Below are positions 12,369 through 61,936 of a stretch of 64,000 nt of DNA, piece by piece. Every line of letters starts with the position of its first letter. The stretch's first letter is position 1. The translations under genes were made by a program, and so were the position numbers. Source of the DNA: Candidatus Omnitrophota bacterium (GTDB lineage: Bacteria; Omnitrophota; Gorgyraeia; 2-01-FULL-45-10); the NCBI GenBank assembly GCA_026387175.1, contig JAPLME010000011.1, positions 129,856 through 193,855 on the forward strand, given 5' to 3'. The notes beneath the pieces are model-generated. The model was not told the DNA's origin, searched no databases, and saw only the letters and a program-made list of their open reading frames with translations.

Positions 12369-12379
12369 GGAATTAAGAT

Positions 12380-12718
12380 ATGATCACATATTTCTTATGT
12401 CTGGTCCTCTTTGCGATAGGGCTATTCTGCGTTGTCAGGAAGAGGAATATTATAAAGATAATCATAGGTATAGGTATCATGGAATATGCCATCAATCTCT
12501 TCTTCGTCCTGGTGGGCTATCGCACTCATGGCCGCTCGCCGATATTCGCGCGCGACCAGATGGTTACCAATATGGTCGATCCCCTGCCGCAGTCGGTGGC
12601 GCTTACAGCGATCGTGATCAGCCTTTCCGTTACGCTGATGCTGGTGGCTGTCGCGATAAGGATCTATGAGAGATACGGCACATTTGACATAACGAAGATA
12701 AACAGGCTAAAAGGATAG
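12380..12718 (+). CDS. mrpC: MrpC/MnhC (NuoK-like) subunit.
   Basis: Three-helix 112-aa protein with 'DPLPQSVALTAIVI'. Confidence 0.75.
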   Translation: MITYFLCLVLFAIGLFCVVRKRNIIKIIIGIGIMEYAINLFFVLVGYRTHGRSPIFARDQMVTNMVDPLPQSVALTAIVISLSVTLMLVAVAIRIYERYGTFDITKINRLKG

Positions 12719-12720
12719 CG

Positions 12721-46431: not shown

Positions 46432-46459
46432 TGTCTTGCAATGAAAAGTGAGACAGGAC

Positions 46460-49400: not shown

Positions 49401-52400
49401 CTAATAATTACATACCGGCTTCCATAAACCCCGCCATAAAGGCCTCGTTTAAATTGGACAGTTTAAAAACATACTCCTCGATCTACATGAGCGCTTACTA
49501 TTATAACTACAACGATAAGTCTGTGAGCCTTTCATTAAATATCTACGGCCAAAAACCAACCCTATATTATTACTATTATGATTACAAGACCAGGAAGACC
49601 GTAAGTGATAATAAAGAACTGAATATAACTGTAAATAGGAATGTCGTTTATAGCATAGAATTTGCATGGAGCCAGAATGGCATTAATATATACCTGTATG
49701 AAGCGTCCGAAGGCCGACCGTCCGATCCCGTCTATACGATAGCTAATTCGAACTGGAACCCGCGTTTCTCATTAAGCGGCAGTAACGCTAATATTATTTT
49801 TGACCCGACTTCAAGCGGAACTTATACTAACTCGAAGAGTGTATCGACGGATTATAATAATCCGTTAAAGAATAGTCCGATACATACGGCCACATTCACA
49901 TTTGATTCGAATGCCGCTTATAAATCGCTTTACTACGGTGTTTACGGTTACTCATCCTCATCCAGCGATTCGCTATATTTAAATTACTATAATAATACTC
50001 TTACTCTGTGGGCATATCACTATGACTATAAGACCTATAAGTACACCAATACCACTATCCCGTTAAATATCAAAATTAAAGATAATACCGCCTACACCCT
50101 TAAGACCAAGATCGAAAATAATACGCTCAAGTTTTACATATATGAGGCGCTCACTGCGCCGGCGGATCCCGTATATACGATAGAAAACGTGTCGTGGGAT
50201 CCTCAAGTTTACGCCAGTATCTCCGGCGGTGATATGAATGTAGAGGCGTGCGACCATCTGGAGACGTACGAGTACAATACCACCGCCGGCATTATGCTCG
50301 ATCAAGACGCTGAAGCGCGTTTAAGGAATAAGAATATCGTTATCGACGACCCATATAGCGCGATACCAGAGTATGCGCTCCTCTCTGATGCCCCCATGGT
50401 ATTTCCAAACGGAAGAACTGATATCATAAATGCCGTTAATCCGAATATGGATTTTTCAATAAGCCTGCCGGCTGGCGATCCGGACAATAACCCGTATTTC
50501 GATACGATAAAATATGATCAGAATAGAGTCCTGAAAGAGATCCTGAAGCCCAGTGGCGAGAAGATATCATATAGAGACGGGCTGGTAGATAATATTTTAA
50601 GCTCTTCCAGCACGACTTCTTATGGCTATCGTTTAAGCGGTCTTGGTAACGTGGATGAGATAACGGTCGACCGCGACGGCATAAAACGCATTTACGACAA
50701 ATACGGCAATATAAAGAGCTTAAGCCTCGATGACGCGACTAAGATCGTATATGAAAACGGCAAGGTCAAAGAGATCCAGAAAGCCGACGGCACGACGCTA
50801 AAGAATATGACGTTCCGCGACTCCGGAGAGCTTGATAGCGCGCTCGTATCTTATCCGGACGGAAGCCTCGCCCTTTACGATGACGCGAAACTCCTTCAAG
50901 CCATCAGCGCGTCCGGCGATATAACAGATTACAGCGATGGGAAGATCCGCAAAGTTACGCTCGAAGACGGCACCGTATACGACTGGTCTTATAGTGGCGA
51001 TAATATAGTGATCTTAGATAACGCTAAAAGCGAGAAGAGGACATATCTCGAAGGCAAGCTTATCAGTCTCGAGGAATTAGCGGGCTCTAAGCTAATTACA
51101 CGATATTATTATGATGGCACCTCAGGAGATCTTACTAAATCGGAGATATGCCGGAATAATGAAATTCTCTACACATACACTTATACATATGAAGACGGCC
51201 TTACTCTCGTTCGCGATGAGGATGGCAATGTCCAGGCCTACACCAAAGATAAAAAACTATCCTATATAATCGATTCCAAGGGTCGGAAATATTCCTATAC
51301 CTATGTCGGCAAGAACGAAGGTTATGTAGAAGTATATTTCCCATCGGGAAATAAGGCGAAGTATGACTTAAGCGGCAATATCATCGAGATCACAAAATCC
51401 GACGGCACGGTGATAAAAGACATTACCTTTTATAGCGATAATACTCCGCGAAACTTCACCTATATTAAGGACGGCGCTACATACAAGGTGGAAGAGGGGA
51501 AGATAGGGGAGATGCTATCGAAGGATGGCGTAAAGACCGTATATTACGATAACGGTTTTGTGAAATCGTTTGAGACAGAAGCCGGGGATCTGACAGAATA
51601 TCAATATTTCGTGAAAGACAGTAAGGTGTTTAACAGTTCATCCGCGCTTTTGGATGGTGATTTTAACCAGGTCAGTCTTTTTAATTCAAATTCCACCACT
51701 TATCTCACGCTATCTCAGGATTCGCTCCGGTTCGGAACCGGGACCGACGGTGTGAAGCACGTAACCGCCAATGAGACATTGGAAGCCGGCACATACAACT
51801 TTGAATCGCTTATGATTGATGCGGGGAAGACTTTAACGATTGCTTCCGGCGCTATCATAAAGGTGCTGGGTACAATTACCGTGAATGGCGCCATATTCTG
51901 CGGCGGTTCTTTAGATATATACGCCCCCAGTTTCAATGTAGGCGCTTCCGGATCCGTCACAGGCGCAGTAAATATCAAGTGTAATACAATAAATAACGCC
52001 GGTATTATAACCGGTAACGCCTCGATAACAGGAACGCTTAGTAACGGCGCGAATGAATTGGATAGAGACGATAGTTTTAGCGGCTGGGCCCATTACCTTG
52101 ATTATAATCCGGGCTCTGGGGCGCTCTCGCCGCGCATAACATTCCCTTCATGCACCATTAGCTCTGTAAAGTGGCAAGCAGGTGGCGGCGGAAGCGGAGA
52201 TAGCCAGGGATACGGTATTCTCTATCTTTATATAGACGGAGTTAAGACCCAAGTCTCACCGACATACTATTGGGGAAGGTGCCCCGGCAGTTTTAATACA
52301 GGCGTCGCTACGATAAACGGATCCTGGAATAATGTTACCGGCATTGAGTATTATATCGAGACGGATTCAACTATAGGTGTGGCTAGAGCTTATGGATACG

Positions 52401-55400
52401 AGATGCAGGCTTTTATTGGGACCCCTACGATAGAGTATATTAGCGGCAGCCCCGGCACAGTTAATACTACACAGTCCAGGCCCATCGCCAGTATCAAACA
52501 ATCCGATCACCCATCTTCCAGTTCCTTCGAATCCGGCGTTATAGAGCTCAATGCGCTTGACCTTGGCTCTATATCATGGAGCCAGGAACTGCCTGAAGGC
52601 ACAAATATCACATTTCAGACGAGGACAGGGGATACGGCTACGCCTGATTCTACGTGGAGTGAGTGGTCGACTAAACTAACCAGTCCGGCCTCTTCTCAAA
52701 TAACCTCTCCGACAGGCAAATATATCCAATACAGAATTAATCTATCCACTACTAATCCGGCTGTGACGCCGCTTTTGAAGCTCGGAGAGAATAGCCCGAT
52801 AACATTTGGTTACAGCCGTGCTCCATCCGGGTCGAGCGAGCTGCCCGGCATATATTGCGCTACGATGTCTAAAGGCGGCGTCACATCCGATTGTGATAAG
52901 AACAGCCTGGCAAGCCTCATCTTTAACCCCGACTACATGGGCGCTATCACGGACGAGATCCCCGATTATTTATTAAACGGCACTCAGAAAGAGCTGTATT
53001 TGAAGGATTCAGTTATCATATCGGAGCTCACCGCGATCACGAATATAGACGGGACGACCACGGAATATTGCCAGGGACAGATCTCGAAGACCACCAGATC
53101 TGACGGGACCATAATTAAGAGCGTTTCTTTCGATGCCGATAATAACGCGAAGGATTTTACCTATTCTAAAGACGGCAGTACATACATAGTGAAAGACGGG
53201 AAGATCGATACCGTAGTAACCGCCTCAGGCGAGAGCGTAAAGTACTATTCATACGGACTGATCGAGAGCACCGAGGCTGCAGGCTCTAAAAAGGAATACG
53301 AATATGGCATACAGACCACTGAAAATTACACGACAAGATCGATATTCCAGGATGGATCTTTTACCAGCGCATCCATTTTAGGACATGGCTCCACCACCTA
53401 TCTCCAGCTCTCGAAGGATTCACTCCGGTTCGGCACAGGTTCTGACGGCGTGAAGCACGTAACCGCGAATGAGACTCTCGAGGCAGGCACATATAACTTC
53501 GAATCGCTTATTATCGATCCAGGGACGACTTTAATAGTCGGCCCCAACACCATAATAAAAGTGCTGGACACAGTCACCGTAAATGGCGCTGTATTCTGCG
53601 GCGGTTCCTTAGATATATGCACCCCTGTTTTCAATGTCAGCTCTTCCGGGTCCGTTACCGGCAGCGTGAATATTAAATGCGACGCAATAAGCAGCGCCGG
53701 CATTATCACCGGCAATGTCTGCCTGACGGGAGCGGGCGGATCTGGCGCTACCACAGATGATAATTTCGGCACTTGCATAAGCGGCTCTCACGGGGCCGGC
53801 GGCAGCGCTGCTGTGACATTTCCAAGTTGTAACATCTCAAAGGCCAGATACAGGGCTTCGCTTGGCAGCTATGGCCTTCCCGCATATGCCAATGTTTATC
53901 TATGCGTTAACGGATCGTGGACTTGCATAGCAAGTTATGCAGGAGCCGGTGATTCCGGAGAGGTGAACAATACAACCGGTTGGTCCAATGTGACGGGCAT
54001 GATGATGACAGGGCAGTCACTTAACGGCGATTGCGTATGTTCTGTATATAACCTGTATGAAATGCAGGCCATTATCGGCCAATCCACGATAGAGTATACG
54101 AGCGGCAACCCCGGCATAGTCAATACCACACCGTCCAGGCCCACCGTTAACATTAAAGCGTACGATTATCCATCATCAGGTTCCTTCGAATCCGGCGTGA
54201 TAGAGCTTAATGCGCTTGACCTTGGATCTATATCGTGGAACCAGGAACTTCCCGAAGGCACAAATATCGCGTTCCAGACGAGAACGGGGGATACGGCTAT
54301 TCCCGATTCCACTTGGAGCGAATGGTCCGAAAGCCTGACAGATTCTAAAGGATCCGACATATTATCTCCTGGTAAAAAATATTTCCAGTATAAGATAAAT
54401 CTGTCAACTGCCGACCCTTCAGTAACGCCTAAGGTACTTCTCTATAGCACTCATGGCATATCGATCAGCTATATTAAGGTTTCTGACAACCCTCTGGATC
54501 CTTATGTGAAAGTGAAAGAAAATAACACCACCTCTGCATACAATAAATCAGGAGTCTTGATCTGGACCGAAGACGCCGCCGGCGTAAGAACTGATTATGA
54601 TCCGGCGAATTCTGAAGGCACCGTTGACCTCGCGCTCCTTAAGTTCGACTCATCATACACGGATTCTCTCACCCAGGATCTTCCTTCCTCTAAACTCTCA
54701 GACTCGCAGAAAGTGATAACCGTCTATGACCAAGGGAACGACACTCCCGTGGAGGTAATAACCGCAGGTCAATCGATCACTTATTTTGATGAAGGTTTTG
54801 CCACCAAAGTTGTCGATAAGAATGGAGTTACGCAAGTTACCTATACTTATGATGAAGACAAAAATATTATAAAGGTTGAATTTGTCGACGCTCGGCAGAA
54901 GCTCGAAGAGAATTACGAGAAAGCCCTGACTGAGATAGTTACCCAGAAGGATGCGGCGCTTGCCAAGCTCGTAAAGGCGGATGCCGCCGCCCGGGCCGAT
55001 ATACTCGCCAAATCAGCGGATATTCAAAAACAGATAGATAGTGAAAGGTCGCGTTTAATCCAGGAAAAGGCTAAATATGATTCTGGTGTATATGACCTCT
55101 CCGAGTTTGACAGAGCATTCAGGGAAATAGACGATTATGAAACACGTCTTCATCAGCAGACTCAGGACGCCTACACGGATTTAGACAATCAAATCGCCTC
55201 TGCCAAGGCACGAATAGAATTCGACGCCTCGACCGCGATGTGGGACCTTATCGATAACGACTACAACAAGATCCTGGGAGATATAGTCCAAAAGGAATCT
55301 TCACCGTTGATTTATCAATATTACAGAAAGATACTGGGCCGGGATCCTGGTGATGAAGACCTCTTATATTGGGCGAATATCGCGAAGACTGAATTAAGGC

Positions 55401-58400
55401 CGCTTACTGCCTCTGAAATAACCCAGTATTTGAAGGATCTCCCGGAGTATGCGGATCGGGAGGCTAGAAAGCAGAATATAATAACGAGCCTTACAGATTT
55501 CTTCGCCCAGTATCTATCCGCATCCGATGCCGATAAAGAGTCCATACTCTCGTCATTAGGCCTTACCTTGGATGATGTAGCTACGTCATTGCGAGGTGCC
55601 GAAGGCACCGAAGCAATCTCCGGCATTATTTCCTGGCTCTCCGGCCAATCCCTGCACTTTGGGGACAGCGCTTTTGAAACTATTATTGCGATGCTGAAAG
55701 ATAACGGCATAGAAAAGTCCTTCGAAGATATAGGTAAAGATGCGCTTAAGGTCGATATATTGACGGGCGTAATAACTAAAGACACCGAAGGCGATCTTCT
55801 TATATCGATGTATGCCATGCGGAAGGCCGCCGAAGCCAATGGCCTTACCTTGTCTTCCCAGAAGATATCCTATGACGACCTGAAGGACCAGGTTTCGAGA
55901 AATAGCGTTATAGTTCATATCGACGGTAAGCATTATGTGCTAGTGACAAGTATCAATGACGCGGACGGCACCATTACCTATATAGACCTCACCGTCGGAC
56001 ATAATGGCCAGGCGATGACCCTTTCAAGGGCCGAATTCATGGAGAAATGGAGAGGCTATTCTCTGTCGAAGGAGCTCTCCTATAATAAGGATCTGCCCAG
56101 CAATCCCTCCAAAGAGATAAATGTAACTCAGGAGAAGAATATAAGGGGAAGCGGCTGGTGGAGTGACTTCTGGAGAGGCATTGTCAACTTCTTCCAGAGG
56201 ATAATAGCGCCTATAGGCGCAATTCTTCTATTTACACCCCTTGCTTCTGTAGGAGCCATATTAATAGGTATCAATGTTGTAGTGCAAACCATATCTTTTG
56301 TTGTGCATACAGGCACTTTAATGGATGTAGTCTGGTCGGTTGTAAATGCTGTAGGTTCCGCGATATGTTCTACAGTGCTCCCGAACATATTCGATGCGGT
56401 GAGGGGTGCTTTTCAATCGATAGGAAGCGCATTTAGCAGTGCGTTTAGTTCTATAGGACAGGCAATTCCGATCCTTGGCAAAGTTTTTGGTGCGCCGATG
56501 GAAATATTTCAAAGCCTTTCCGGAGCGGCTACCGATATAGCGACAAGAATATGGAGCACCACAGGATTTACTGAAACGGTAAAAGATGTAGTTCTGAGCA
56601 TAGGAACAAGGATCATTGAGCAAGGTGTTAGTCTCGGTGCGAACTATTTATTTAAGAGTATGGGCCTTGACCCGACGTTAGCAAGCATAGGCAGCGCATT
56701 GATTTCCGGAGCCATTGCTGGTTTGGGCAATCCCAATATAGGGATTGTCGGTGGTATTTTACAGTCCGGTGTTATTTCCGGCGTCGACCAACTTGGTACT
56801 GCTTTAAAGCTCGATCCTAACATCACCAGTCTCGCCGGTATGATGGCTGGCTCTATTATAGGAGGTTCCGTATATACCGGAACAGGGGAAATATCATATC
56901 AGGACCTTATAAAAAGTATCTCACCATACATATACAGCGAATGTGCGTATATTGGTGTAACAGATGTGGGTGAACTCCTCGGTATCGATTCGCGAATATC
57001 CTACTTGGCGGGGGTGGGGATACGGTCAAGTATTAATATAGGTTATGGATCAGATGGAATATTCGACTGGAAGGATGCATGGAGTGGAGTGCAGCAGGGG
57101 TTGTTGCAGGGGATTACTTCAATCGGAATAAATTACGCTACGCAGGAGTTGGGGCTGAATCCGCTTTTGGCCAACATAGGCTTCTCGGCTATATCCGGGG
57201 CTATAAATGCGGGCATACAGGCTGCCACAGGCGATAGTAAGGATATATTCCAGAGCCTATTTAAGACCTATACGGATAATGCCTTAACCTTCCTGGGCTA
57301 TGGCGATCCTTCAAATGCGTGGCAGCAGGCAGCGTATATAGCCCAGATACAGGATTTCACAAAGATAGTGACGGAGAAAGGCTTTGTTGAGGCATTGAAT
57401 ACATATGGAGCCAGCTTCTTTAATAGCGTGGCTGTCAATTCAATCGTGCAATCTGGTATGTCCATTGGCCAATACTTTGCCAAGGCTCTTGGCGAGAATC
57501 GATTTTATTCAGAAACCATAAATGGTAAGACGTATAAAACTGTAGAGATACGTGACAAGAATGGCAATCTGATAGGTTCCAGTGGCATGTTCGAAACCAT
57601 AAAACTCCCAAGCGGTGAAGAGGTGAGCGAGTTAGTGGGTAAGCGCGAAACCACAACTGATGGATCATTTCTCGGCATTGGTAACCTCGGAGTTGACGTT
57701 TACGGTAAAGTGGGTTTCACCGACGCAGAGCTCGCGACGACTTATGATGGTATACGAAGGGAGAGTCAGACCATAGATAATGGATTGCAGGTTTATGCGG
57801 ATGTGTGCGATTTACATAGTGGAGACGTCCTGCTTACCATAACGCCAAAGGATGTTGGAGGTTGGAACATATACAGCGAAGATGGGGAGTACGTGGATGC
57901 TAATATAAAAGAATTTTCCATAGGGTATGACATAAGTATTAAAAACAGCGAAACAGTGCGATATCTTTCAACCACTATGAATTGGCTTACGGAAGAGCAG
58001 CGTGATATACTGAAGCGGATAGGATATAGCGATGCTGAGATAGATAAAATTTCTTTGGAAATAGGGTTGGTTATCGATGATTCTGGAAAAACTATGTTAC
58101 AATACAGCATAGGATCTGACATTCAGAAACTAATTAACGTAAGCGGAGCGCTTGGAAATGAATGGCTAAACAGCTTAAAATTGGATGTAAATATTTTCAA
58201 TCATGTAAGCAATGAATTGCTTGATGTGACAAGTTATACAAAAAACACACGGACGCTGATTGACACAGAGAAAGGTATATCTGCCGTTGATATGCTTAAT
58301 TTGGAAGTATTCAAGCCGGAAGAGTACTTGAAATATGCTTTCACGATAGAAGGCTTTTTCCAAAAAATAGGTTACGAAAATTCGGTTTGGGAAATGTCTG

Positions 58401-58987
58401 TTAATGACGCGGCTATTGAGGTGGGTAGCGTTATAAATAGCGGACTCGCAAGATTCGTGTATGTGCCGGGAATTAATACGGCAGTAAATGATTTGAGCAT
58501 GGTGCAAAAAATAAGTGATATGTTAGGCATGGATAGCGTTAACAAAACCGTTGTTATTGCTCATAGCGCCGGGGTTGATGCGGCTGTACGTTCTATGAAA
58601 TATGCAAAAGCCGATAAGTATGTTTTTATATCCCCGAGATCGGAAGCATACGCTATTTATAAAATAGCCACAGAGAATGGAATAGACCTGCGCAATATAA
58701 TGATAATAAATTCAGAAGGTGATATCCCAAATTGGAGCGGTAACCAGAATTATTGGGAGCAGTGTCCCAATGGGTATAAATATACATGGGAAAACGTTTA
58801 TATTAAAAATGACGTGAGTAAAGAAGTAAATCTATATGATTTTAATGCGCGTCATAGCTGGGCCATTAACTATTGGGTTGACGGCGCGACGGCCGATGGA
58901 GATTATTTCAATATCTACAAAGACGGTGTAATGCAAGACGAGCCGTCTACAATGACAAAGGTAATAAAAGAATTTATAAAAAAATAA
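46460..58987 (+). CDS. Giant secreted multidomain protein (about 4175 aa). It has a signal peptide, YD/RHS-like repeats, two internally duplicated module pairs, a DUF4214-like segment, a C39-like domain, a Gly/Ser-rich region and a C-terminal alpha/beta-hydrolase-like domain. A GTG start at 46448 is also possible.
   Basis: Signal peptide 'MITTLKTKAPFKAMALAIAFSFLWQQILWA'. Numerous 'xYxYDxxGN(L/V)' YD repeats (e.g. YEYDASGNVISIT). 'LIYQYYRKILGRDPGDEDLLYW' is DUF4214-like. 'GKHYVLVTS...EFMEKWRGYSL' is C39-like. 'VVIAHSAGVD' is a GxSxG-like nucleophile elbow. Confidence 0.7.
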   Translation: MITTLKTKAPFKAMALAIAFSFLWQQILWAGDLAATTLENLNQEQSQTFAPDYLQNQQTASQSMITQKQDVEDTINSQAQTANNISGNTKESSDNSIELQGPKSASSGQAGATSSSTIIEEAANAPEGDGAILSVTTGDGDIVHYADGAISSIEKKDGTVLRDLVIGENNELIAANITYKDDTNEIVANGKVARLTKPDGTVFEYSGELITRATYPDPDNPEGNVVDYFYSVDNDNNIIETKLKDSEKSSFYDKNGALIRVEFNTGKVIEYDSDKNDDTDNGILSKVITEDGKIYIYEKSEDAIDGETVYTVKLKEIRDGEGNTFRLEDNNITEIELSDGTILRNFELDSSGNLVSGNIIYKDNPTLRSILVENKRVKEVNDVNGVRTTYRYDRINEAGDIVNATIEIDDGSSAVETYTYTKDEETLGVTITNGDRTWKYNSAWVLESFSDSEGAIKHHYSPLAVYAGSTFTLSDGTIKEYNDNKSLIKTILTDGTAYEYYQSGKFAGKLQKEVSPDGKSIIYDYKITPEGDLVVYKRTSYDKSSSYKSYYATDNVNYTTNPTLKASFNLDSDKTYSSAYASASYYNYNDKSVSLSLSFYNEKPYLYYYSYNYKTKQYVYDYKQLDITINKDTDYTVEYIWTSTGVNIYLYKSSGTRPGTALYTIADNKWNPVFSLSGSNAHLTLDPSSSGTYTGSESVSTDYNNPLKGGPMYAAEFTFDQNAASRSLYYSVYGNNSASYDSIYFNYYNNTPSLSVYHYDYKTYQYTNKTIPVNVAFNKGATYVMQTKMEDNVLKLYIYEKGTAPGDPIYTIENAVWNPQVYSTISGGRMNVEAYDNLEVYKYGDADGTLLERNSYADKALLTYIYDDAREVIGKKLALEDGTKKIYDAYNKLLTETKANGEIAAYEYDASGNVISITPRFPDGTGYTYYDSGAFQGKLKSAAIPDGKVVYYDYAVNENGNLQVYKRVSYDKSNLYQSIYSNNYIPASINPAIKASFKLDSLKTYSSIYMSAYYYNYNDKSVSLSLNIYGQKPTLYYYYYDYKTRKTVSDNKELNITVNRNVVYSIEFAWSQNGINIYLYEASEGRPSDPVYTIANSNWNPRFSLSGSNANIIFDPTSSGTYTNSKSVSTDYNNPLKNSPIHTATFTFDSNAAYKSLYYGVYGYSSSSSDSLYLNYYNNTLTLWAYHYDYKTYKYTNTTIPLNIKIKDNTAYTLKTKIENNTLKFYIYEALTAPADPVYTIENVSWDPQVYASISGGDMNVEACDHLETYEYNTTAGIMLDQDAEARLRNKNIVIDDPYSAIPEYALLSDAPMVFPNGRTDIINAVNPNMDFSISLPAGDPDNNPYFDTIKYDQNRVLKEILKPSGEKISYRDGLVDNILSSSSTTSYGYRLSGLGNVDEITVDRDGIKRIYDKYGNIKSLSLDDATKIVYENGKVKEIQKADGTTLKNMTFRDSGELDSALVSYPDGSLALYDDAKLLQAISASGDITDYSDGKIRKVTLEDGTVYDWSYSGDNIVILDNAKSEKRTYLEGKLISLEELAGSKLITRYYYDGTSGDLTKSEICRNNEILYTYTYTYEDGLTLVRDEDGNVQAYTKDKKLSYIIDSKGRKYSYTYVGKNEGYVEVYFPSGNKAKYDLSGNIIEITKSDGTVIKDITFYSDNTPRNFTYIKDGATYKVEEGKIGEMLSKDGVKTVYYDNGFVKSFETEAGDLTEYQYFVKDSKVFNSSSALLDGDFNQVSLFNSNSTTYLTLSQDSLRFGTGTDGVKHVTANETLEAGTYNFESLMIDAGKTLTIASGAIIKVLGTITVNGAIFCGGSLDIYAPSFNVGASGSVTGAVNIKCNTINNAGIITGNASITGTLSNGANELDRDDSFSGWAHYLDYNPGSGALSPRITFPSCTISSVKWQAGGGGSGDSQGYGILYLYIDGVKTQVSPTYYWGRCPGSFNTGVATINGSWNNVTGIEYYIETDSTIGVARAYGYEMQAFIGTPTIEYISGSPGTVNTTQSRPIASIKQSDHPSSSSFESGVIELNALDLGSISWSQELPEGTNITFQTRTGDTATPDSTWSEWSTKLTSPASSQITSPTGKYIQYRINLSTTNPAVTPLLKLGENSPITFGYSRAPSGSSELPGIYCATMSKGGVTSDCDKNSLASLIFNPDYMGAITDEIPDYLLNGTQKELYLKDSVIISELTAITNIDGTTTEYCQGQISKTTRSDGTIIKSVSFDADNNAKDFTYSKDGSTYIVKDGKIDTVVTASGESVKYYSYGLIESTEAAGSKKEYEYGIQTTENYTTRSIFQDGSFTSASILGHGSTTYLQLSKDSLRFGTGSDGVKHVTANETLEAGTYNFESLIIDPGTTLIVGPNTIIKVLDTVTVNGAVFCGGSLDICTPVFNVSSSGSVTGSVNIKCDAISSAGIITGNVCLTGAGGSGATTDDNFGTCISGSHGAGGSAAVTFPSCNISKARYRASLGSYGLPAYANVYLCVNGSWTCIASYAGAGDSGEVNNTTGWSNVTGMMMTGQSLNGDCVCSVYNLYEMQAIIGQSTIEYTSGNPGIVNTTPSRPTVNIKAYDYPSSGSFESGVIELNALDLGSISWNQELPEGTNIAFQTRTGDTAIPDSTWSEWSESLTDSKGSDILSPGKKYFQYKINLSTADPSVTPKVLLYSTHGISISYIKVSDNPLDPYVKVKENNTTSAYNKSGVLIWTEDAAGVRTDYDPANSEGTVDLALLKFDSSYTDSLTQDLPSSKLSDSQKVITVYDQGNDTPVEVITAGQSITYFDEGFATKVVDKNGVTQVTYTYDEDKNIIKVEFVDARQKLEENYEKALTEIVTQKDAALAKLVKADAAARADILAKSADIQKQIDSERSRLIQEKAKYDSGVYDLSEFDRAFREIDDYETRLHQQTQDAYTDLDNQIASAKARIEFDASTAMWDLIDNDYNKILGDIVQKESSPLIYQYYRKILGRDPGDEDLLYWANIAKTELRPLTASEITQYLKDLPEYADREARKQNIITSLTDFFAQYLSASDADKESILSSLGLTLDDVATSLRGAEGTEAISGIISWLSGQSLHFGDSAFETIIAMLKDNGIEKSFEDIGKDALKVDILTGVITKDTEGDLLISMYAMRKAAEANGLTLSSQKISYDDLKDQVSRNSVIVHIDGKHYVLVTSINDADGTITYIDLTVGHNGQAMTLSRAEFMEKWRGYSLSKELSYNKDLPSNPSKEINVTQEKNIRGSGWWSDFWRGIVNFFQRIIAPIGAILLFTPLASVGAILIGINVVVQTISFVVHTGTLMDVVWSVVNAVGSAICSTVLPNIFDAVRGAFQSIGSAFSSAFSSIGQAIPILGKVFGAPMEIFQSLSGAATDIATRIWSTTGFTETVKDVVLSIGTRIIEQGVSLGANYLFKSMGLDPTLASIGSALISGAIAGLGNPNIGIVGGILQSGVISGVDQLGTALKLDPNITSLAGMMAGSIIGGSVYTGTGEISYQDLIKSISPYIYSECAYIGVTDVGELLGIDSRISYLAGVGIRSSINIGYGSDGIFDWKDAWSGVQQGLLQGITSIGINYATQELGLNPLLANIGFSAISGAINAGIQAATGDSKDIFQSLFKTYTDNALTFLGYGDPSNAWQQAAYIAQIQDFTKIVTEKGFVEALNTYGASFFNSVAVNSIVQSGMSIGQYFAKALGENRFYSETINGKTYKTVEIRDKNGNLIGSSGMFETIKLPSGEEVSELVGKRETTTDGSFLGIGNLGVDVYGKVGFTDAELATTYDGIRRESQTIDNGLQVYADVCDLHSGDVLLTITPKDVGGWNIYSEDGEYVDANIKEFSIGYDISIKNSETVRYLSTTMNWLTEEQRDILKRIGYSDAEIDKISLEIGLVIDDSGKTMLQYSIGSDIQKLINVSGALGNEWLNSLKLDVNIFNHVSNELLDVTSYTKNTRTLIDTEKGISAVDMLNLEVFKPEEYLKYAFTIEGFFQKIGYENSVWEMSVNDAAIEVGSVINSGLARFVYVPGINTAVNDLSMVQKISDMLGMDSVNKTVVIAHSAGVDAAVRSMKYAKADKYVFISPRSEAYAIYKIATENGIDLRNIMIINSEGDIPNWSGNQNYWEQCPNGYKYTWENVYIKNDVSKEVNLYDFNARHSWAINYWVDGATADGDYFNIYKDGVMQDEPSTMTKVIKEFIKK
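48025..50280 (+). repeat. Internal tandem duplication within the giant gene. Two ~0.97-kb copies (48025-48990 and 49312-50280), each built of two Tyr/Asn-rich lectin-like sub-repeats.
   Basis: The protein-level repeat is 'YDY..G.L.VYKR.SYDKS..Y.S.Y....Y......P..KASF.LDS.KTYSS.Y.SA.YYNYNDKSVSLSL..Y...P.LYYY.Y.YKT.....' x2. Confidence 0.7.
51625..54470 (+). repeat. Second internal duplication within the giant gene. Two ~1.15-kb copies (about 51625-52800 and 53320-54470) with stretches about 88% identical at the DNA level.
   Basis: For example, 51721-51820 aligns with 53422-53521, and 52527-52670 aligns with 54186-54329. The encoded beta-helix-like module is 'GAIIKVLGTITVNGAIFCGGSLDI'. Confidence 0.75.
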
Positions 58988-58991
58988 TATT

Positions 58992-59789
58992 ATGAAAATA
59001 AAATTAATTGCTTTAACTATAATTTTATGCTTGATATTATCAGTAGGGTATATTTTTCTTTTGCAAAAACATGTTTTATGGTTTTGTGACAGCTTTATGG
59101 CGTTTACGCATGAAAATTATTATCAGGCCATGTACGACGGATGGAAAAATAAAACATCGAGTTTCCTCCTGTCGCAGTTAAACATTTTTAGCGATGAGCC
59201 AAGATTTTCTACGGCAGCAGTCATATTAACCGAACGAAAAGAAAAAAGAGCTATCAAGCCATTAAGAGCTATTTTGAATAGTCAAGCAAGCTCGAATATT
59301 AAGCGCGTGGCTATATTCCGATTAGTGAATTTTGATGATAAAGAATCTATGGATCATTTTATGGGGAAAGCATACGCATACAAACAGATGAATTTGAATT
59401 TTTACGACAAATCCAAGTCCGAAGATATCGATGAATATCGAACCATATTGCAGGCTTTATCTTCAGTTCAATCAGAGAAAGCTTATCTACTCATTTTAGA
59501 GTTAGCAAAAAATGGCAGTCGCTGGGAAAAAGCATGGGTTTTCACCTTATGCCTACATTATTATAAGGCACACTCACTGGAAATAATTCCTATGTATGAA
59601 AAATATTTTTTTGATAATTTAGAGATATCATCAAGTCCAGCGAAAGATAATGTTATTTTAGGACTAACATCATTGGGAGATCCTAAAGCCATCCCCGTGT
59701 TAGAAAATATAGCTGAGAAGAAGCCGGAATACAGACGAGAAGCTAACCGTGCCATAGCATTTATAGAGGCCGCTCAGAACAAAAAATAA
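58992..59789 (+). CDS. Membrane-anchored HEAT/PBS-lyase-like repeat protein. Candidate immunity protein.
   Basis: N-terminal TM segment. 'VILGLTSLGDPKAIPVLENIA' is a HEAT-like repeat. The gene is AT-rich and begins 5 nt after the giant gene's stop. Confidence 0.45.
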   Translation: MKIKLIALTIILCLILSVGYIFLLQKHVLWFCDSFMAFTHENYYQAMYDGWKNKTSSFLLSQLNIFSDEPRFSTAAVILTERKEKRAIKPLRAILNSQASSNIKRVAIFRLVNFDDKESMDHFMGKAYAYKQMNLNFYDKSKSEDIDEYRTILQALSSVQSEKAYLLILELAKNGSRWEKAWVFTLCLHYYKAHSLEIIPMYEKYFFDNLEISSSPAKDNVILGLTSLGDPKAIPVLENIAEKKPEYRREANRAIAFIEAAQNKK

Positions 59790-59802
59790 AGGAGGGGTTT
59801 GC

Positions 59803-60426
59803 ATGGTGGGAAAAATACTTTTCATTTTTTTTGCGATTTCAATTGTATCTGTTAATTGCAGTAACTGCGCTGATAGCGCCTCCTATGCTGTTCAAGAGCC
59901 AAAAGGCGATACTGTGAACCTGGTTGATTTTATTCCCCAGAAGATAAATTTTCCATTTGAAATCAAGTATCCGGCAAAATGGTATGTTAGGGAAGAGCTT
60001 ACGGGTAATATGCCGGCTCTCATTTTAAGCCAGGAGCCGATTAAAAATGATACAGACAAATATAAAGTTGGCGTGAGTTTATTGTATAACGTAGGTTATT
60101 TTTCCAGCAGAGAGTCTTCCAGCTCAGCTTTGGGACAAACTGCCGATCTTGTGGTAAGAATTAGGGATTGGAAAGAAAGCAAAAAGCAATTTGTTGAAGG
60201 TTTGAAAGAAGCAGGAAATACTATTATTTCCCAATCGGATATAAAAGTTTCTGGGCAGCCTGCCCTGCGAGTTGAGTTTGAATCGAAAGCCGTGAGAGTC
60301 ACTGTCATATATGTGCAGGTAGGTGTGCATCTTTTAATGATGACCTTTGAGTCTCCTCCTCAAGAATATAATCTATATAAAGATATTTTTGAAAAGATGA
60401 TAAACTCGCTATTTTTTACACGATAG
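59803..60426 (+). CDS. Hypothetical secreted/lipoprotein (207 aa).
   Basis: Signal peptide with Cys 'FAISIVSVNCSNC'. AT-rich. A GGAGGGG RBS precedes the start. Confidence 0.45.
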   Translation: MVGKILFIFFAISIVSVNCSNCADSASYAVQEPKGDTVNLVDFIPQKINFPFEIKYPAKWYVREELTGNMPALILSQEPIKNDTDKYKVGVSLLYNVGYFSSRESSSSALGQTADLVVRIRDWKESKKQFVEGLKEAGNTIISQSDIKVSGQPALRVEFESKAVRVTVIYVQVGVHLLMMTFESPPQEYNLYKDIFEKMINSLFFTR

Positions 60427-60464
60427 GCAAGATTCTCTGATATATACTTATTGGGAATAAGAAT

Positions 60465-60487
60465 AAATAGGGCGCAGCGCCCTATTT
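60465..60487. repeat. Palindromic element AAATAGGGCGC-A-GCGCCCTATTT, copy 1. A likely bidirectional terminator. A second copy is at 60630-60652.
   Basis: Perfect palindromes that also form a direct repeat 165 bp apart. The core matches the terminator at 24097-24122. Confidence 0.5.
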
Positions 60488-60554
60488 GTGGAGTGAGATA
60501 ACCGTCTTAGCGAATAAGGATGGTCGATGAAGATAGGAAGATACGAATATGGGG

Positions 60555-60584
60555 GCAACTCTTCAGCGAGAGAGTTGCTTTTTT
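60555..60584 (+). terminator. Intrinsic terminator (GCAACTCT-TCAGCGAG-AGAGTTGC followed by T6).
   Basis: 8-bp perfect stem plus T6. It lies between the two palindromic elements. Confidence 0.6.
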
Positions 60585-60629
60585 ATTTCAGAATAGCTTG
60601 TGCCGTGCTTATAACCTTTATAATTCAAT

Positions 60630-60652
60630 AAATAGGGCGCAGCGCCCTATTT
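60630..60652. repeat. Palindromic element AAATAGGGCGC-A-GCGCCCTATTT, copy 2.
   Basis: Identical to copy 1. Confidence 0.5.
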
Positions 60653-60876
60653 ATAAGATATAATTTAGTAGGGTGCCCCTTTTCAGGATGGCCCCATTTT
60701 TGTGCGCACATTTTGTTACCCCTCCTTAATATATTTTAAAATAATTTGCAACAATTTGGCCTATTTTAGCGTCTTATATAATAGGTGAGTATAAACGCAA
60801 TCGCCTGATCTAATACAAAAAGCGTGTTATATTTATAATTATATTGACAAAAATACATATATGAGGTATCCTTAAT

Positions 60877-61158
60877 ATGCTTAAAGAGCATGGCAGTTTC
60901 ATATGGGATCCGAGGAAGGAAAGAGTGAATGTTTATAAGCACCGCATAGATTTTATTACCGCAGCCAAGGCATTTGAGGACCCAAAGAGAAAGATATTTA
61001 TCGATTCTAAACATAGCGAACGTGAAGATAGATATTTCTGTATAGGGAAAGTAGGCGATAGAATCATAACCATACGATTTACATATCGAAACGGTAAGAT
61101 CAGGATGATCGGTGCGGGTTACTGGAGAAAGGGGATAAGATATTATGAGAAAACATAA
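60877..61158 (+). CDS. brnT: BrnT-family (DUF497) type II toxin (ribonuclease toxin).
   Basis: 93 aa starting 'FIWDPRKERVNVYKHRIDFITAAKAFEDP'. BrnT-like. Its stop overlaps the start of the downstream antitoxin. Confidence 0.65.
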   Translation: MLKEHGSFIWDPRKERVNVYKHRIDFITAAKAFEDPKRKIFIDSKHSEREDRYFCIGKVGDRIITIRFTYRNGKIRMIGAGYWRKGIRYYEKT

Positions 61159-61375
61159 GACAGATCAGGATATGCCGATAGGCGAGTTAAAGAGAGTAGA
61201 TGATTTCTTGCCGCCGCCTAAAGAATTGGCTGTTCCGGAACAGACCATTATGGTCACTTTGCGGCTAAGCGAGAAGAGCGTTGACTTCTTCAAACAGCAA
61301 GCTAAGAGGTATAACACCAAGTATCAGAAGATGCTGAGGTTCCTGGTGGACAAATATGTGGAACGATATACATAA
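61145..61375 (+). CDS. brnA: BrnA-family antitoxin.
   Basis: 76 aa with '...LPPPKELA...QTIMVTLRLSEKSVDFFKQQAKRYNTKYQKMLRFLVDKY', a BrnA-like RHH/CopG-type protein. Toxin-antitoxin gene order and a 14-nt overlap. Confidence 0.65.
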   Translation: MRKHKTDQDMPIGELKRVDDFLPPPKELAVPEQTIMVTLRLSEKSVDFFKQQAKRYNTKYQKMLRFLVDKYVERYT

Positions 61376-61435
61376 ATGGGATTGTCGCAGGGACGGGTCT
61401 GGGTTATAATAAAGAATAAGAAAAAGGAGCTGCCT

Positions 61436-61936
61436 ATGAAAAGAAGCGTGTTTTTAGTGTTTGTATTCTGTCTTATCTTGATCATGCCGGCGTTTTCTAG
61501 TGAGCAAGCAGATACGGCGAAAGAGGAGATAAAAGCAACGATCTGCGAACTAATGAATAGAGTTACTAGTACAGCGGAGACGCTCGATGCGGCAAAGACC
61601 CTTTCGGTCTTGAGCGACGACCCGGACGCGGTCTTCTTTTTTGGCTCAAAACCGTACAGCAAGGCGGAGCTGGTGAGGACCCTCGCCGAGGCCTATGGTA
61701 AGCTCAAGTCCATGAAGATCAGTATGAACGCGCCCAAAGTGGAGGTGCTGGGAGCTGACGCCGCCGTATGGACCGCTACAGGCAGGGCAGACTCTGTCGG
61801 TAAATCCGGCGAGAGCTATACGGAAATGCTTACTGAAACCTGGATTTGGCAGAAGCAGTCCGGCATATGGCGTGTAGTTCATTACAATGAGTCGGTGACC
61901 GTTCCCCCTTTGACGCCCAAAAATAGTGATAAGTAA
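61436..61936 (+). CDS. Secreted NTF2-like / SnoaL-like (DUF4440-type) protein.
   Basis: An AAGGAG RBS precedes the start. Signal peptide 'MKRSVFLVFVFCLILIMPAFSS'. Size and hydrophobic pattern suggest an NTF2-like fold. The family call is tentative. Confidence 0.45.
   Translation: MKRSVFLVFVFCLILIMPAFSSEQADTAKEEIKATICELMNRVTSTAETLDAAKTLSVLSDDPDAVFFFGSKPYSKAELVRTLAEAYGKLKSMKISMNAPKVEVLGADAAVWTATGRADSVGKSGESYTEMLTETWIWQKQSGIWRVVHYNESVTVPPLTPKNSDK

What the first reader, a model, noticed from the sequence alone, without database searches (positions are those of the whole stretch)
55300..60426. AT-rich C-terminal cassette (C39-like plus alpha/beta-hydrolase) and two AT-rich downstream genes
The last ~1100 codons of the giant gene and the two following small genes (a HEAT-repeat membrane protein and a lipoprotein) have visibly lower GC than the 5' 9 kb and the flanking genome. 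The terminal domains are DUF4214-like, a C39-peptidase-like fold apparently lacking the catalytic Cys (GDSAF instead of DCG), a Gly/Ser-rich linker, and an alpha/beta-hydrolase with an AHSAG nucleophile elbow (lipase/esterase-like, reminiscent of Tle-type effectors). A compositionally distinct C-terminal toxin domain followed by small cognate genes is the hallmark of polymorphic toxin systems (C-terminal displacement), with the HEAT-repeat protein and/or lipoprotein as candidate immunity proteins.
Basis: partly seen in the sequence, partly recalled or inferred. Interest (0 to 1): 0.65.

Follow-up and report, generated by a model that had tools for sequence, protein, structure and literature searches.

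The report
Swappable hydrolase tip with partner genes
The last ~360 codons of a 4,179-residue secreted protein of an Omnitrophota bacterium, plus the two small genes after it, form a low-GC cassette (a serine-hydrolase tip and its dedicated partner proteins) that looks exchangeable between relatives, as in known polymorphic toxin/immunity systems.

Summary
It starts at nt ~57,900 (codon ~3,818), not 55,300, and runs to ~61,200. GC is 0.369 against 0.468 around it, the lowest 3.3-kb stretch in the window. The DUF4214-like, C39-like and Gly-rich parts have normal GC and belong to the conserved body.

The GC change-point coincides with a homology break. The closest relative (L007) is 69% identical up to residue 3820 and has an unrelated tail after it. 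The tail's nearest relative (47%) sits on a protein whose body is only 36% identical.

The tail core is an uncurated hydrolase family. Ser4040, Asp4092 and His4136 are invariant in 22 sequences, and the predicted topology is alpha/beta-hydrolase-like.

ORF265 (membrane-anchored, HEAT repeats) has full-length homologues directly after related tails in four metagenome contigs, plus a fragment in a fifth. ORF207 recurs in two. Other tail types pair with other partner types. Relatives carry promoterless-looking orphan tail-plus-partner modules, several beside transposase or integrase genes.

This fits a polymorphic toxin/immunity system in Omnitrophota. Toxicity, substrate and immunity are untested. 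I rate it a new member of a known kind, of moderate interest.

The parts
46448..58987 (+). Giant gene (4,179 aa). Contains an N-terminal Sec-type signal (aa 1-35, ...FLWQQILWA|GD), YD/RHS-type repeats, two pairs of long internal repeats, a coiled coil, a C39-like domain, a membrane/Gly-rich module and the variable tail.
   Evidence: ORF list and translation. Pfam RHS_repeat 1.4e-10 and Peptidase_C39. Relatives are all Omnitrophota MAGs/SAGs. The signal-peptide motif is shared with P0011, P0018, P0022 and P0026.
55613..56140 (+). C39-like papain-fold domain (aa 3056-3231). Ser3074 (nt 55667-55669) stands where C39 peptidases have the catalytic Cys. His3162 and Asp3180 are invariant. Candidate releasing peptidase. 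Normal GC, part of the conserved body.
   Evidence: Pfam PF03412 E 4e-8, model positions 46-127. Invariant columns of alignment A3. HFGxSA[FY] in distant relatives. The Cys/His/Asp equivalence is by motif comparison from memory, not by a tool alignment.
56165..57397 (+). Conserved hydrophobic Gly/Ala/Ser-rich module (aa ~3240-3650). It has two strongly hydrophobic segments (aa 3244-3289) followed by repeated G(L/I)(D/N)Pxh(A/T/S)xhG motifs. Candidate membrane-insertion or translocation module. Normal GC.
   Evidence: Kyte-Doolittle scan and motif search. Conserved at 24-70% identity in all relatives. No Pfam match.
57881..57907 (+). Junction motif DGEYVDANI (aa 3812-3820). It is the last conserved stretch before the tails diverge, and it coincides with the GC change-point (57,900).
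   Evidence: BLASTP alignments end at aa 3820-3822 for L007, L012, P0001 and P0004. The motif (Y/H/D)G(E/D)Y(V/I)DA(K/R/N)I precedes divergent tails and lies inside two orphan modules. Change-point.
57908..58267 (+). Tail N-terminal subdomain (aa 3821-3940). Low GC. It is 56% identical to the same part of P0011 and has no Pfam match.
58268..58987 (+). Tail hydrolase core (aa 3941-4179, plus stop). The AHSAG nucleophile elbow carries Ser4040 (58565-58567). Also SPR (Ser4062/Arg4064), Asp4092 (58721-58723) and His4136 (58853-58855). Low GC.
   Evidence: Exhaustive phmmer found 23 representatives, nearly all with the match at their C-terminal end. Invariant S/D/H in 22 sequences. AF2 model pLDDT 83, pTM 0.85, with strand-Ser-helix elbow and the beta-alpha-beta order of alpha/beta hydrolases. 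Only weak matches to class-3 lipases (E 0.12) and cutinase/lipase folds (E >= 0.056). No Pfam family.
58992..59789 (+). ORF265: N-terminal membrane anchor plus an all-alpha HEAT-repeat domain. Cognate partner of the tail and candidate immunity protein.
   Evidence: HEAT_2 E 3.4e-8. All five aligned family members hit HEAT_2 and HEAT_PBS. Full-length homologues (29-33% id, E 1e-33 to 1e-36) lie immediately after the hydrolase-tail ORF in L022, L024, L026 and L027, with an N-terminal fragment in L028 (E 0.024 on its own; same conserved N-terminal motif). Shorter, sequence-dissimilar HEAT proteins occupy the same position in L020 and L029 (HEAT_2 checked for L020 only). Annotated 'hypothetical protein' MCX5678863.1.
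59803..60426 (+). ORF207: exported protein with signal peptide (possible lipoprotein). A second, less constant partner.
   Evidence: Homologues in L024 (52% id, same position) and L022 (60% id, fused behind a TPR domain). Absent from L026 and L027. No Pfam hit. The relative in L024 gives a sub-threshold PsbP hit, E 0.018. MCX5678864.1 'hypothetical'.
60427..60876 (.). Low-GC spacer at the distal side of the cassette. It holds two identical 26-nt palindromes (60462-60487 and 60627-60652) and a terminator-like hairpin (60551-60582).
   Evidence: No Rfam match.
60877..61375 (+). BrnT-like toxin (60877-61158) and BrnA-like antitoxin (61145-61375). The low-GC island ends inside this pair (~61,210).
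   Evidence: Precomputed Pfam BrnT_toxin and BrnA_antitoxin (weak) on the identical contig L004. GC values.

Best explanation
The window comes from a Candidatus Omnitrophota genome.

Shown:
- Gene 46448-58987 encodes a Sec-exported giant YD-repeat protein. Its last ~1,200 residues have two parts.
- The first part is a conserved, normal-GC delivery body: coiled coil, a C39-like domain with Ser in place of Cys, two hydrophobic helices, a Gly/Ala/Ser-rich repeat module, and a beta-rich stretch ending in the motif GEYVDAxI.
- The second part is a ~360-residue low-GC tip (aa 3821-4179) that differs from the tip carried by the closest relative.
- Together with ORF265 and ORF207, the tip forms one compositionally foreign cassette joined to the body at nt ~57,905.
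- The tip ends in a serine hydrolase of an uncurated alpha/beta-hydrolase-like family (Ser4040, Asp4092, His4136).

Inferred:
- The cassette was acquired by recombination at the junction, as in Rhs or CdiA C-terminal displacement.
- The tip is an exported effector that attacks an envelope component of another cell (competitor, host or prey). An ester bond in a lipid is the most likely target.
- It may be released by the C39-like domain and helped across or into a membrane by the Gly-rich module.
- ORF265 has its HEAT solenoid anchored on the outer face of the producer's cytoplasmic membrane. It binds and neutralises the cognate tip, acting as immunity. ORF207 is an auxiliary exported partner.
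For: 1. The homology break and the GC change-point coincide. L007 is 69% identical over aa 1354-3820 and then has an unrelated 341-aa tail. P0001, P0004 and L012 break at 3820-3822. The GC change-point is at 57,900, which is codon 3818.
2. Phylogenetic incongruence. The tail's best relative, P0011, is 56% (N-subdomain) and 41% (core) identical in the tail but 36% in the body. P0018/L015 is 45% identical in the body but 26% in the tail.
3. Several tail families follow the same body. These are A-type HSAG hydrolases, B1/B2 types (related to each other with 98% hhalign probability, but not detectably to A), an Abhydrolase_8/DUF676-type tail in L010, and non-hydrolase tails in P0005, P0008, P0031, L016 and L008.
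4. Tail type predicts the downstream gene.
   - A-type clade I (L022, L024, L026, L027, L028) pairs with ORF265-like HEAT proteins. L025, also in this clade, is followed instead by a zinc-ribbon/TM protein.
   - The main A-type clade II (L015, L017/L018, L021, L023) pairs with 91-109-aa multi-TM proteins. L019 shows only the small lipoprotein that follows them elsewhere.
   - L020 and L029, which branch beside clade II, pair with shorter HEAT proteins.
   - The window's own tail lies outside both clades (28-33% identity to all).
   - B1 pairs with small TM-TPR proteins, and B2 with 205-210-aa TM-TPR proteins.
   - The tails of P0008 and L016 are each followed by a beta-propeller lipoprotein. 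I did not test whether those two tails are related to each other.
5. Relatives carry orphan modules that start inside the conserved body and bring their own partner gene. Examples are L017/L018 (599 aa), L011 14667-15989, L023 4914-6029 and L026. The L011 and L018 modules lie beside transposase or integrase genes.
6. Tail plus partner has lower GC than the body in all nine related modules examined.
7. All partners carry signal, anchor or TM segments, so they are extracytoplasmic like the exported tip.
8. Ser/Asp/His are invariant, and the model has a strand-Ser-helix elbow.
9. Imm-HEAT immunity proteins, alpha/beta-hydrolase toxin tips and releasing peptidases are established parts of polymorphic toxin systems (PMC3482391).
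Against: - No toxicity, substrate or binding data exist.
- The fold match to known hydrolases is not significant (Foldseek best E 0.056, TM ~0.3; PDB profile E 0.12). No Pfam family matches.
- The window contains no orphan cassette and no dedicated secretion genes nearby. The neighbours are housekeeping genes.
- The hydrolase tip is also the commonest C-terminus across very distant family members. It could therefore be an ancestral functional part of the protein rather than an arbitrary toxin.
- The typical Rhs terminal autoprotease motif DPxGL is absent.
- The C39-like domain lacks the usual Cys, so the release step is speculative.
- ORF207 is absent from two of the four ORF265-type loci that extend far enough downstream to show it.
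- One clade I tail (L025) is followed by a zinc-ribbon/TM protein rather than an ORF265-type protein.
- No context could be obtained for the two closest tails (P0011, P0012).
Confidence: 0.68

Rival explanations
1. The tip is a resident surface or secreted enzyme (for example a lipase or esterase for nutrient acquisition or envelope remodelling). ORF265 is its dedicated steric chaperone or foldase. This would resemble the membrane-anchored all-helical Lif proteins, which are encoded just after family I.1/I.2 lipases. It would not be an immunity protein.
For: ORF265 is a membrane-anchored all-alpha protein encoded 4 nt after a lipase-like domain. It has a conserved motif right after the anchor, FxDSFMGF. 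The hydrolase tip is the commonest end of the family, even in distant members. No secretion or competition genes lie nearby.
Against: Pfam gives no Lipase_chap signal for any of the five family members, even at E <= 10. All five hit HEAT_2 and HEAT_PBS. Unrelated tails, including non-hydrolase ones, each have their own unrelated exported partner (TPR, beta-propeller, small multi-TM) and occur as orphan tail-plus-partner modules. That pattern is typical of toxin/immunity pairs and is not expected for foldases. The abrupt tail replacement relative to a 69%-identical body also argues against it.
Confidence: 0.14
2. No cassette exchange took place. The C-terminus and the downstream genes are simply fast-evolving and AT-drifted under relaxed or diversifying selection, and were inherited vertically.
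For: Tail and partner genes are AT-richer than the body in every related locus examined. This could reflect a shared mutational or expression-related bias rather than foreign origin. The window's tail is an outlier, ~28-33% identical to all the related tails for which gene context was available.
Against: Homology to a 69%-identical relative stops within a few codons and is replaced by a non-homologous sequence (hhalign probability <1% between A and B tails). The tail is closer to P0011 than the bodies are. The same junction is used by at least five different tail families. Standalone modules lie beside transposases and integrases.
Confidence: 0.06
3. The junction is an assembly or binning artefact that joins two organisms.
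For: The source is a metagenome-assembled genome, and the composition changes abruptly.
Against: Two independent assemblies from other sequencing runs span the junction at 99.99-100% identity (L003, L005). The reading frame is continuous. P0011 has the same body-junction-tail arrangement.
Confidence: 0.01

Closest known systems
Rhs/YD-repeat polymorphic toxins with downstream immunity genes (e.g. E. coli Rhs elements, B. subtilis WapA; template in Zhang et al. 2012, PMC3482391)
   Same: A Sec signal plus YD/RHS repeats and a conserved body. A variable C-terminal tip and the following gene are AT-richer than the core. Relatives carry orphan tip-plus-partner modules, and there is a short conserved junction motif.
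   Different: No DPxGL-type terminal autoprotease motif. The tip is separated from the YD repeats by >1,000 residues (coiled coil, Ser-variant C39-like domain, Gly-rich membrane module). No T6SS or other dedicated export genes lie nearby. The host phylum is Omnitrophota.
CdiA-CT/CdiI contact-dependent inhibition systems
   Same: A sharp conserved-to-variable junction (VENN there, GEYVDAxI here). A cognate partner is encoded immediately downstream. Orphan CT/partner modules retain a piece of upstream homology.
   Different: No TPS domain, FHA repeats or CdiB partner. The junction motif and body are unrelated. Delivery route unknown.
T6SS lipase effectors and their periplasmic immunity proteins (Tle1-4/Tli), and Tox-ABhydrolase-1/2/3 tips of polymorphic toxins
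   Same: A Ser-Asp-His hydrolase tip paired with extracytoplasmic partner proteins. Weak profile similarity to class-3 lipases in the nucleophile and SPR(V/M) region. Zhang et al. likewise report that Tox-ABhydrolase-3 is closest to class-3 lipases.
   Different: No Pfam family, including Tle3, Lipase_3, DUF2235 and PGAP1, matches the window's tip. The fold match is not significant. No T6SS. Substrate unknown.
Imm-HEAT immunity proteins (Zhang et al. 2012)
   Same: A small HEAT-repeat protein encoded directly after a polymorphic toxin tip.
   Different: In that paper Imm-HEAT is listed with Ntox34 and Tox-REase-7, not with hydrolases. ORF265 has a membrane anchor. Family membership beyond the generic HEAT_2 match was not tested.
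C39 bacteriocin-processing peptidase domains and the inactive C39-like domain of HlyB; Tox-PL-C39 and releasing peptidases of polymorphic toxins
   Same: Pfam PF03412 match above the gathering score. Its position upstream of a variable tip matches that of releasing peptidases.
   Different: An invariant Ser stands where the Cys is expected. Only model positions 46-127 align. The domain is embedded in a giant exported protein rather than an ABC transporter. Activity unknown.
Lipase-specific foldases (Lif) encoded after family I.1/I.2 lipase genes
   Same: A membrane-anchored all-helical protein immediately after a lipase-like domain.
   Different: No Lipase_chap signal. The partner varies with tail type and travels in orphan modules.

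Membership tests
Polymorphic toxin system (sensu Zhang et al. 2012) | Homologous proteins share a conserved N-terminal/central region but carry unrelated C-terminal domains | tested here: met
   At least five tail families follow the same body. Breaks fall at aa 3670, 3820-3822, 3897 and 3926.
Polymorphic toxin system (sensu Zhang et al. 2012) | A small gene immediately downstream co-varies with the C-terminal domain (cognate immunity) | tested here: met
   Co-variation of tail clade and partner type is shown, with one clade I exception (L025). ORF265 homologues follow related tails in four loci, plus a fragment in a fifth. The immunity function itself was not tested.
Polymorphic toxin system (sensu Zhang et al. 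2012) | Standalone (orphan) tip-plus-immunity cassettes available for recombination | tested here: inconclusive
   Present in relatives (L011, L017/L018, L023, L026). None is found in this 64-kb window. The rest of the genome was not available.
Polymorphic toxin system (sensu Zhang et al. 2012) | The C-terminal domain is toxic to target cells and is neutralised by the cognate immunity protein | not testable with these tools
   Needs expression and competition experiments.
Rhs-family toxins | YD/RHS repeats forming a shell that ends in the conserved PxxxxDPxGL aspartyl autoprotease motif just before the toxin tip | tested here: not met
   An RHS_repeat Pfam hit is present. No DPxG[LIV] motif occurs anywhere in the protein. 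The tip is >1,000 residues away from the YD-repeat regions.
Alpha/beta-hydrolase fold serine hydrolases | Nucleophile elbow (small-x-Ser-x-small) between a beta strand and a helix, with Ser, acid and His in that order on loops after successive strands | tested here: met
   A-H-S4040-A-G lies between strand 95-99 and helix 101-109 of the model. Asp4092 follows strand 144-149 and His4136 follows strand 175-182. All three are invariant in 22 sequences.
Alpha/beta-hydrolase fold serine hydrolases | Significant sequence or structure similarity to established members | tested here: inconclusive
T6SS Tle lipase effectors | Membership of a Tle family (DUF2235, Lipase_3, DUF3274/Tle3, PGAP1-like, PLD) and genetic linkage to T6SS/VgrG | tested here: not met
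   No such Pfam hit for the window's tip. No T6SS genes in the window. Only the unrelated tail of L010 gives a weak Tle3/DUF676 signal.
Peptidase C39 | Pfam PF03412 match above the gathering threshold | tested here: met
   27.6-33.6 bits against a cut-off of 22.
Peptidase C39 | Catalytic Cys-His dyad | tested here: not met
   The expected Cys position is an invariant Ser (HFGDS3074AF). His3162 and Asp3180 are invariant. The N-terminal third of the Pfam model does not align.
DUF4214 | Pfam match | tested here: not met
   No hit, even at E <= 10, on aa 2981-3071.
HEAT-repeat proteins (ORF265) | Pfam HEAT_2 match above threshold and an all-alpha structure | tested here: met
   34.1 bits against a cut-off of 27.7. 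All five aligned family members hit HEAT_2. The low-confidence model is all-helical.
Lipase-specific foldase (Lif) | Pfam Lipase_chap match | tested here: not met
   No hit at E <= 10 in any of five family members.

The most novel reading that the evidence does not exclude
The C39-type proteins were reported in 2026 as the largest Pfam-architecture cluster of long Omnitrophota proteins, with no function assigned. They may be a phylum-wide, previously unrecognised effector-delivery scaffold. In this reading a Ser-variant C39-like peptidase and a Gly-rich membrane module release or translocate interchangeable C-terminal enzymes. Those enzymes are swapped at a GEYVDAxI junction from mobile orphan cassettes, each with its own exported immunity protein. 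This would give these ultra-small, putatively predatory or episymbiotic bacteria a contact-dependent weapon. It would also give a concrete, testable function to one class of their enigmatic large proteins.
Probability: 0.35. Interest if true: 0.7.

Novelty: new member of a known kind. Interest (0 to 1): 0.5.

Why it matters
Large and giant proteins of Omnitrophota are repeatedly described as poorly understood (PMC10066038; bioRxiv 10.1101/2023.11.21.568195; 10.64898/2026.06.07.730766). In the library searched, only one paper holds both 'Omnitrophota' and 'polymorphic toxin', and it deals with a different kind of protein. The three Omnitrophota giant-protein papers I searched by keyword describe no polymorphic effector/immunity arrangement.

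If the reading is right, one common architecture class would be a carrier of exchangeable envelope-attacking enzymes with cognate protection genes. That would support an antagonistic or predatory lifestyle.

It also gives short, clonable test objects: a 240-360-aa hydrolase, a 265-aa HEAT protein and an S4040A control. And it adds an uncurated hydrolase family, a new junction motif and several new candidate immunity families to the catalogue of polymorphic toxin parts.

If it is wrong, the region is still a clear case of modular gene-end replacement in an uncultured phylum.

Tried and rejected
- The word-index homology search with the tail found nothing. Only the exhaustive phmmer search found relatives.
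- The profile search through the word index returned four short fragments.
- The first metagenome scan, with the window/P0011 tail alignment, found nothing. Two alignments were too divergent to seed scans at all.
- PDB sequence and profile searches gave nothing for the tail beyond E 0.12, and nothing for the C39-like domain.
- NCBIfam gave no hit for the last 1,229 aa or for either small ORF.
The single-sequence model was too poor (pLDDT 53) to use for fold search. The Lif-versus-immunity question therefore could not be addressed structurally.
- hhalign did not link A-type and B-type tails. I dropped my first impression that all tails are diverged copies of one hydrolase.
- I first counted L011 11856-13037 as an orphan. 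I rejected that because a 226-nt run of N interrupts the gene just before it.
- No orphan cassette, and no second copy of any tail or partner, exists in the window.
- No Rfam family matches in 57,500-61,500.
- The promoter-like site count is no higher than in shuffled sequence.
- An assembly chimera is rejected.

Full report
**1. What is in the sequence**

The region holds three tightly packed plus-strand ORFs. The giant ORF runs 46448-58987 (4,179 codons, GTG start). ORF265 runs 58992-59789 and ORF207 runs 59803-60426, with gaps of 4 and 13 nt.

After them come a 450-nt spacer, a BrnT/BrnA-like toxin-antitoxin pair (60877-61375) and a SnoaL/NTF2-like gene. The wider neighbourhood is housekeeping: a 4-alpha-glucanotransferase domain protein, Thi4, pyruvate kinase, prenyltransferases, a methyltransferase and a PAS histidine kinase. 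No secretion-system genes are present.

Exact-sequence look-ups place the window in a Candidatus Omnitrophota MAG. ORF265 is MCX5678863.1 (NTY76_07130) and ORF207 is MCX5678864.1. Both are annotated 'hypothetical' and both are singleton clusters at 90% identity.

**2. The compositional observation**

- In 100-codon bins, the gene keeps GC 0.43-0.48 and GC3 0.38-0.58 from 55,300 to ~57,850. It then drops to GC 0.38-0.40 and GC3 0.37-0.39.
- A two-state likelihood fit puts the low-GC block at 57,900-61,210, with GC 0.369 against 0.468 and a log-likelihood gain of ~51.
- It is the lowest-GC 3.3-kb stretch of the 64-kb window, about 3.2 sd below the mean.
- The AT-rich unit is therefore the last ~360 codons plus ORF265, ORF207, the spacer and the BrnT-like gene.
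- The DUF4214-like motif (aa 2955), the C39-like domain and the Gly-rich region are compositionally normal.
- Independent assemblies from other runs span the boundary at 99.99-100% identity, so it is not a chimera.

**3. Domain claims**

- On the whole protein, Pfam finds only RHS_repeat and Peptidase_C39 (aa 3120-3207). On fragments, C39 improves to E 4e-8, while DUF4214 is not detected even at E <= 10.
- The C39-like domain carries HFGDS(3074)AF. The Ser, His3162 and Asp3180 are invariant among close relatives. HFGxSA[FY] persists in relatives down to ~24% identity. The residue equivalence to C39 enzymes is my own motif comparison, not a tool result.
- The 'Gly/Ser linker' is a conserved ~400-residue module. 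It has two strongly hydrophobic segments (aa 3244-3289) and repeated G(L/I)(D/N)Pxh(A/T/S)xhG motifs. It has no Pfam match.

**4. The tail**

- The word-index search found nothing. The exhaustive phmmer search found 23 representatives.
- In nearly all of them the match lies at the C-terminal end. Several are proteins of 2,100-4,200 aa that share the coiled-coil, C39-like and Gly-rich body.
- A 22-sequence alignment of the core has invariant Ser100, Asp152 and His196, which are Ser4040, Asp4092 and His4136 in the giant protein. Ser122, Arg124 (the SPR motif), Trp41 and Gly68 are also invariant.
- The AlphaFold2 model is confident (pLDDT 83, pTM 0.85). It puts the Ser between a strand and a helix, and the Asp and His on loops after the next strands. 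That is the order expected for alpha/beta hydrolases.
- Similarity to known enzymes is weak.
  - The PDB profile hit to class-3 lipases has E 0.12. It does align HSAG with GHSLG and SPRM with SPRVGN.
  - The top Foldseek hits are cutinases, PETases and lipases, but E >= 0.056 and TM ~0.3.
  - No Pfam family matches the window's tail. A few family members give sub-threshold hits to various abhydrolase families.
- I conclude that this is an uncurated Ser-Asp-His hydrolase family with alpha/beta-hydrolase-like topology. 'Lipase/esterase' is a reasonable guess, not a finding.

**5. Comparison with relatives: the key evidence**

*Break points*
- Searches with the conserved body returned only Omnitrophota-type fragments and loci.
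- The closest locus, L007, is 69% identical over aa 1354-3820. The alignment stops at 3820 and an unrelated 341-aa tail follows.
- P0001, P0004 and L012 break at 3820-3822. Others break at ~3670, 3897 or 3926.
- Residue 3820 corresponds to nt 57,907, and the GC change-point is at 57,900.

*Junction motif*
- The last conserved residues form a motif, (Y/H/D)G(E/D)Y(V/I)DA(K/R/N)I. In the window this is DGEYVDANI, aa 3812-3820.
- At least five different sequence families follow it.

*Incongruence between body and tail*
- P0011 has the most similar tail (56% in the N-subdomain, 41% in the core), but its body is only 36% identical.
- P0018/L015 shows the reverse: 45% in the body and 26% in the tail.

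*Tail families*
- B1 and B2 tails are related to each other (98% hhalign probability) but not detectably to the window's type (probability <1%).
- One further tail, in L010, is a recognisable Abhydrolase_8/DUF676-type hydrolase. Others have no recognisable domain.

**6. Partner genes**

- A second metagenome scan retrieved 13 contigs with A-type tails.
- Full-length ORF265 homologues (29-33% identity, E 1e-33 to 1e-36) lie directly after the tail ORF in L022, L024, L026 and L027. An N-terminal fragment lies in the same place in L028.
- Shorter HEAT proteins occupy that position in L020 and L029. They show no significant sequence similarity to ORF265, and I checked the HEAT_2 match only for L020.
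- ORF207 homologues follow in L024 (52% identity) and in L022 (60%, fused to a TPR domain). They are absent from L026 and L027.
- A second clade of A-type tails is followed instead by a 91-109-aa multi-TM protein, usually with a small lipoprotein after it. L019 shows only the lipoprotein.
- Clustering of tail cores largely matches partner type. L025 is an exception: it belongs to clade I but is followed by a zinc-ribbon/TM protein. The window's own tail is an outlier to both clades.
- B1 tails pair with small TM-TPR proteins, and B2 tails with 205-210-aa TM-TPR proteins. The P0008 and L016 tails are each followed by a beta-propeller lipoprotein, but I did not test whether those two tails are related.
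- All partners have anchors or signal sequences.

**7. Orphan modules**

- L017 carries a main gene end with a B2 tail and its TPR partner. A 599-aa ORF follows that starts inside the Gly-rich module and ends in an A-type tail with its own multi-TM partner.
- The identical module sits next to two integrase genes in L018.
- L011 has a B1-type module plus partner after a transposase-like gene, and L023 has another module. Both start ~90-125 residues upstream of the junction motif.
- L026's host ORF also starts inside the body.
- The window itself has no such module.
- In all nine related modules examined, tail and partner have lower GC than the body. The window's pattern is therefore a family trait, as in classical Rhs elements.

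**8. Interpretation**

The arrangement meets the bioinformatic definition of a polymorphic toxin system. Zhang et al. 2012 (PMC3482391) list Imm-HEAT, Tox-ABhydrolase tips, Tox-PL-C39 and releasing peptidases as components.

*Shown:*
- modular replacement of the tail at a fixed junction;
- co-variation of the tail with downstream exported proteins;
- orphan modules in relatives;
- an invariant Ser-Asp-His set.

*Inferred:*
- that the tail is a toxin or effector, and that it hydrolyses a lipid or envelope ester;
- that the C39-like domain releases it, and that the Gly-rich module helps membrane passage;
- that ORF265 is the immunity protein, with its HEAT domain on the outer side of the membrane (lysines precede the anchor in all five homologues).

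The main rival is a Lif-like foldase role for ORF265. It has no sequence support and does not explain the diversity of partners and orphan modules, but it cannot be excluded without experiments.

A further caveat is that the HSAG hydrolase is also the commonest terminus in distant family members. It may be the ancestral working end of these proteins rather than one interchangeable toxin among many.

**9. Novelty**

Papers on Omnitrophota giant proteins mention C39 domains. One reports a PF03412 architecture cluster as the largest among long proteins. They call the functions poorly understood, and keyword searches of these papers found no polymorphic tips, immunity genes or orphan cassettes.

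The logic of the system is well known. What is new is the phylum, the delivery body, the junction motif, the hydrolase family and the partner families. I therefore file it as a new member of a known kind, of moderate interest.

Noticed in passing
window 60462-60487 and 60627-60652: Two identical 26-nt palindromes (AATAAATAGGGCGCAGCGCCCTATTT) lie 165 nt apart in the low-GC spacer after ORF207, flanking a terminator-like hairpin at 60551-60582. They are the only copies in the window (4 matches counting both strands, against 0.02 expected). They may be REP-like. Related loci have REP-associated-tyrosine-transposase-like genes beside orphan cassettes (L011 13986-14666, L018 6029-6685).
   Followed up: partly
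window 60877-61375: A BrnT/BrnA-like toxin-antitoxin pair sits at the distal edge of the low-GC island. The closest relative, L007, has two other toxin-antitoxin-like pairs in the same relative position (12258-13003 and 13213-13796). The region just after the giant gene therefore seems to collect selfish modules.
   Followed up: partly
window 19538-24094: A 1,518-aa protein with a Macro domain and DNA-methylase/UPF0020 domains occupies the second-lowest-GC stretch of the window (~0.41). It may be a defence or restriction-modification-type island.
   Followed up: no
window 46448-55300 (giant protein aa ~530-1300 and ~1840-2760): The giant protein contains two different pairs of long internal repeats of several hundred residues each. 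One pair is Tyr/Ser/Asn-rich. The other begins DSLRFGTG(T/S)DGVKHVTANETLEAGTYNFESL. Neither has a Pfam match.
   Followed up: no
window 55667-55669 (Ser3074) and relatives P0010, P0011, P0020, P0022, P0026, P0033: The C39-like domain has an invariant Ser where a Cys is expected (HFGxSA[FY]) across relatives down to ~24% identity. These include fragments labelled Azambacteria and Parabacteroides MAGs, the latter probably a binning error. This could be a Ser-nucleophile variant of a papain-fold peptidase.
   Followed up: partly
L024 2717-3337 and 3351-3986; window 59803-60426: The ORF207 relative in L024 and the next gene in that contig both give sub-threshold PsbP/PsbP_2 hits (E 0.01-0.05). This hints at a PsbP/DcrB-like fold for ORF207. 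The window's copy gives no hit.
   Followed up: partly
window 57908-58267 and tails of P0008, P0013, P0014, P0031, L023: A short motif of the form L(T/S)xEE(Q/K)xxLxxxG(Y/F)(S/T)Dx(E/D)I recurs just after the junction in several otherwise different tail families. It may be a shared adapter element.
   Followed up: no
L011 16385-17845 (minus strand): An inverted 486-aa fragment of the conserved Gly-rich body lies downstream of the orphan module in the RBG_13_46_9 scaffold, beside assembly gaps. It may be a rearrangement remnant or a scaffolding artefact.
   Followed up: no
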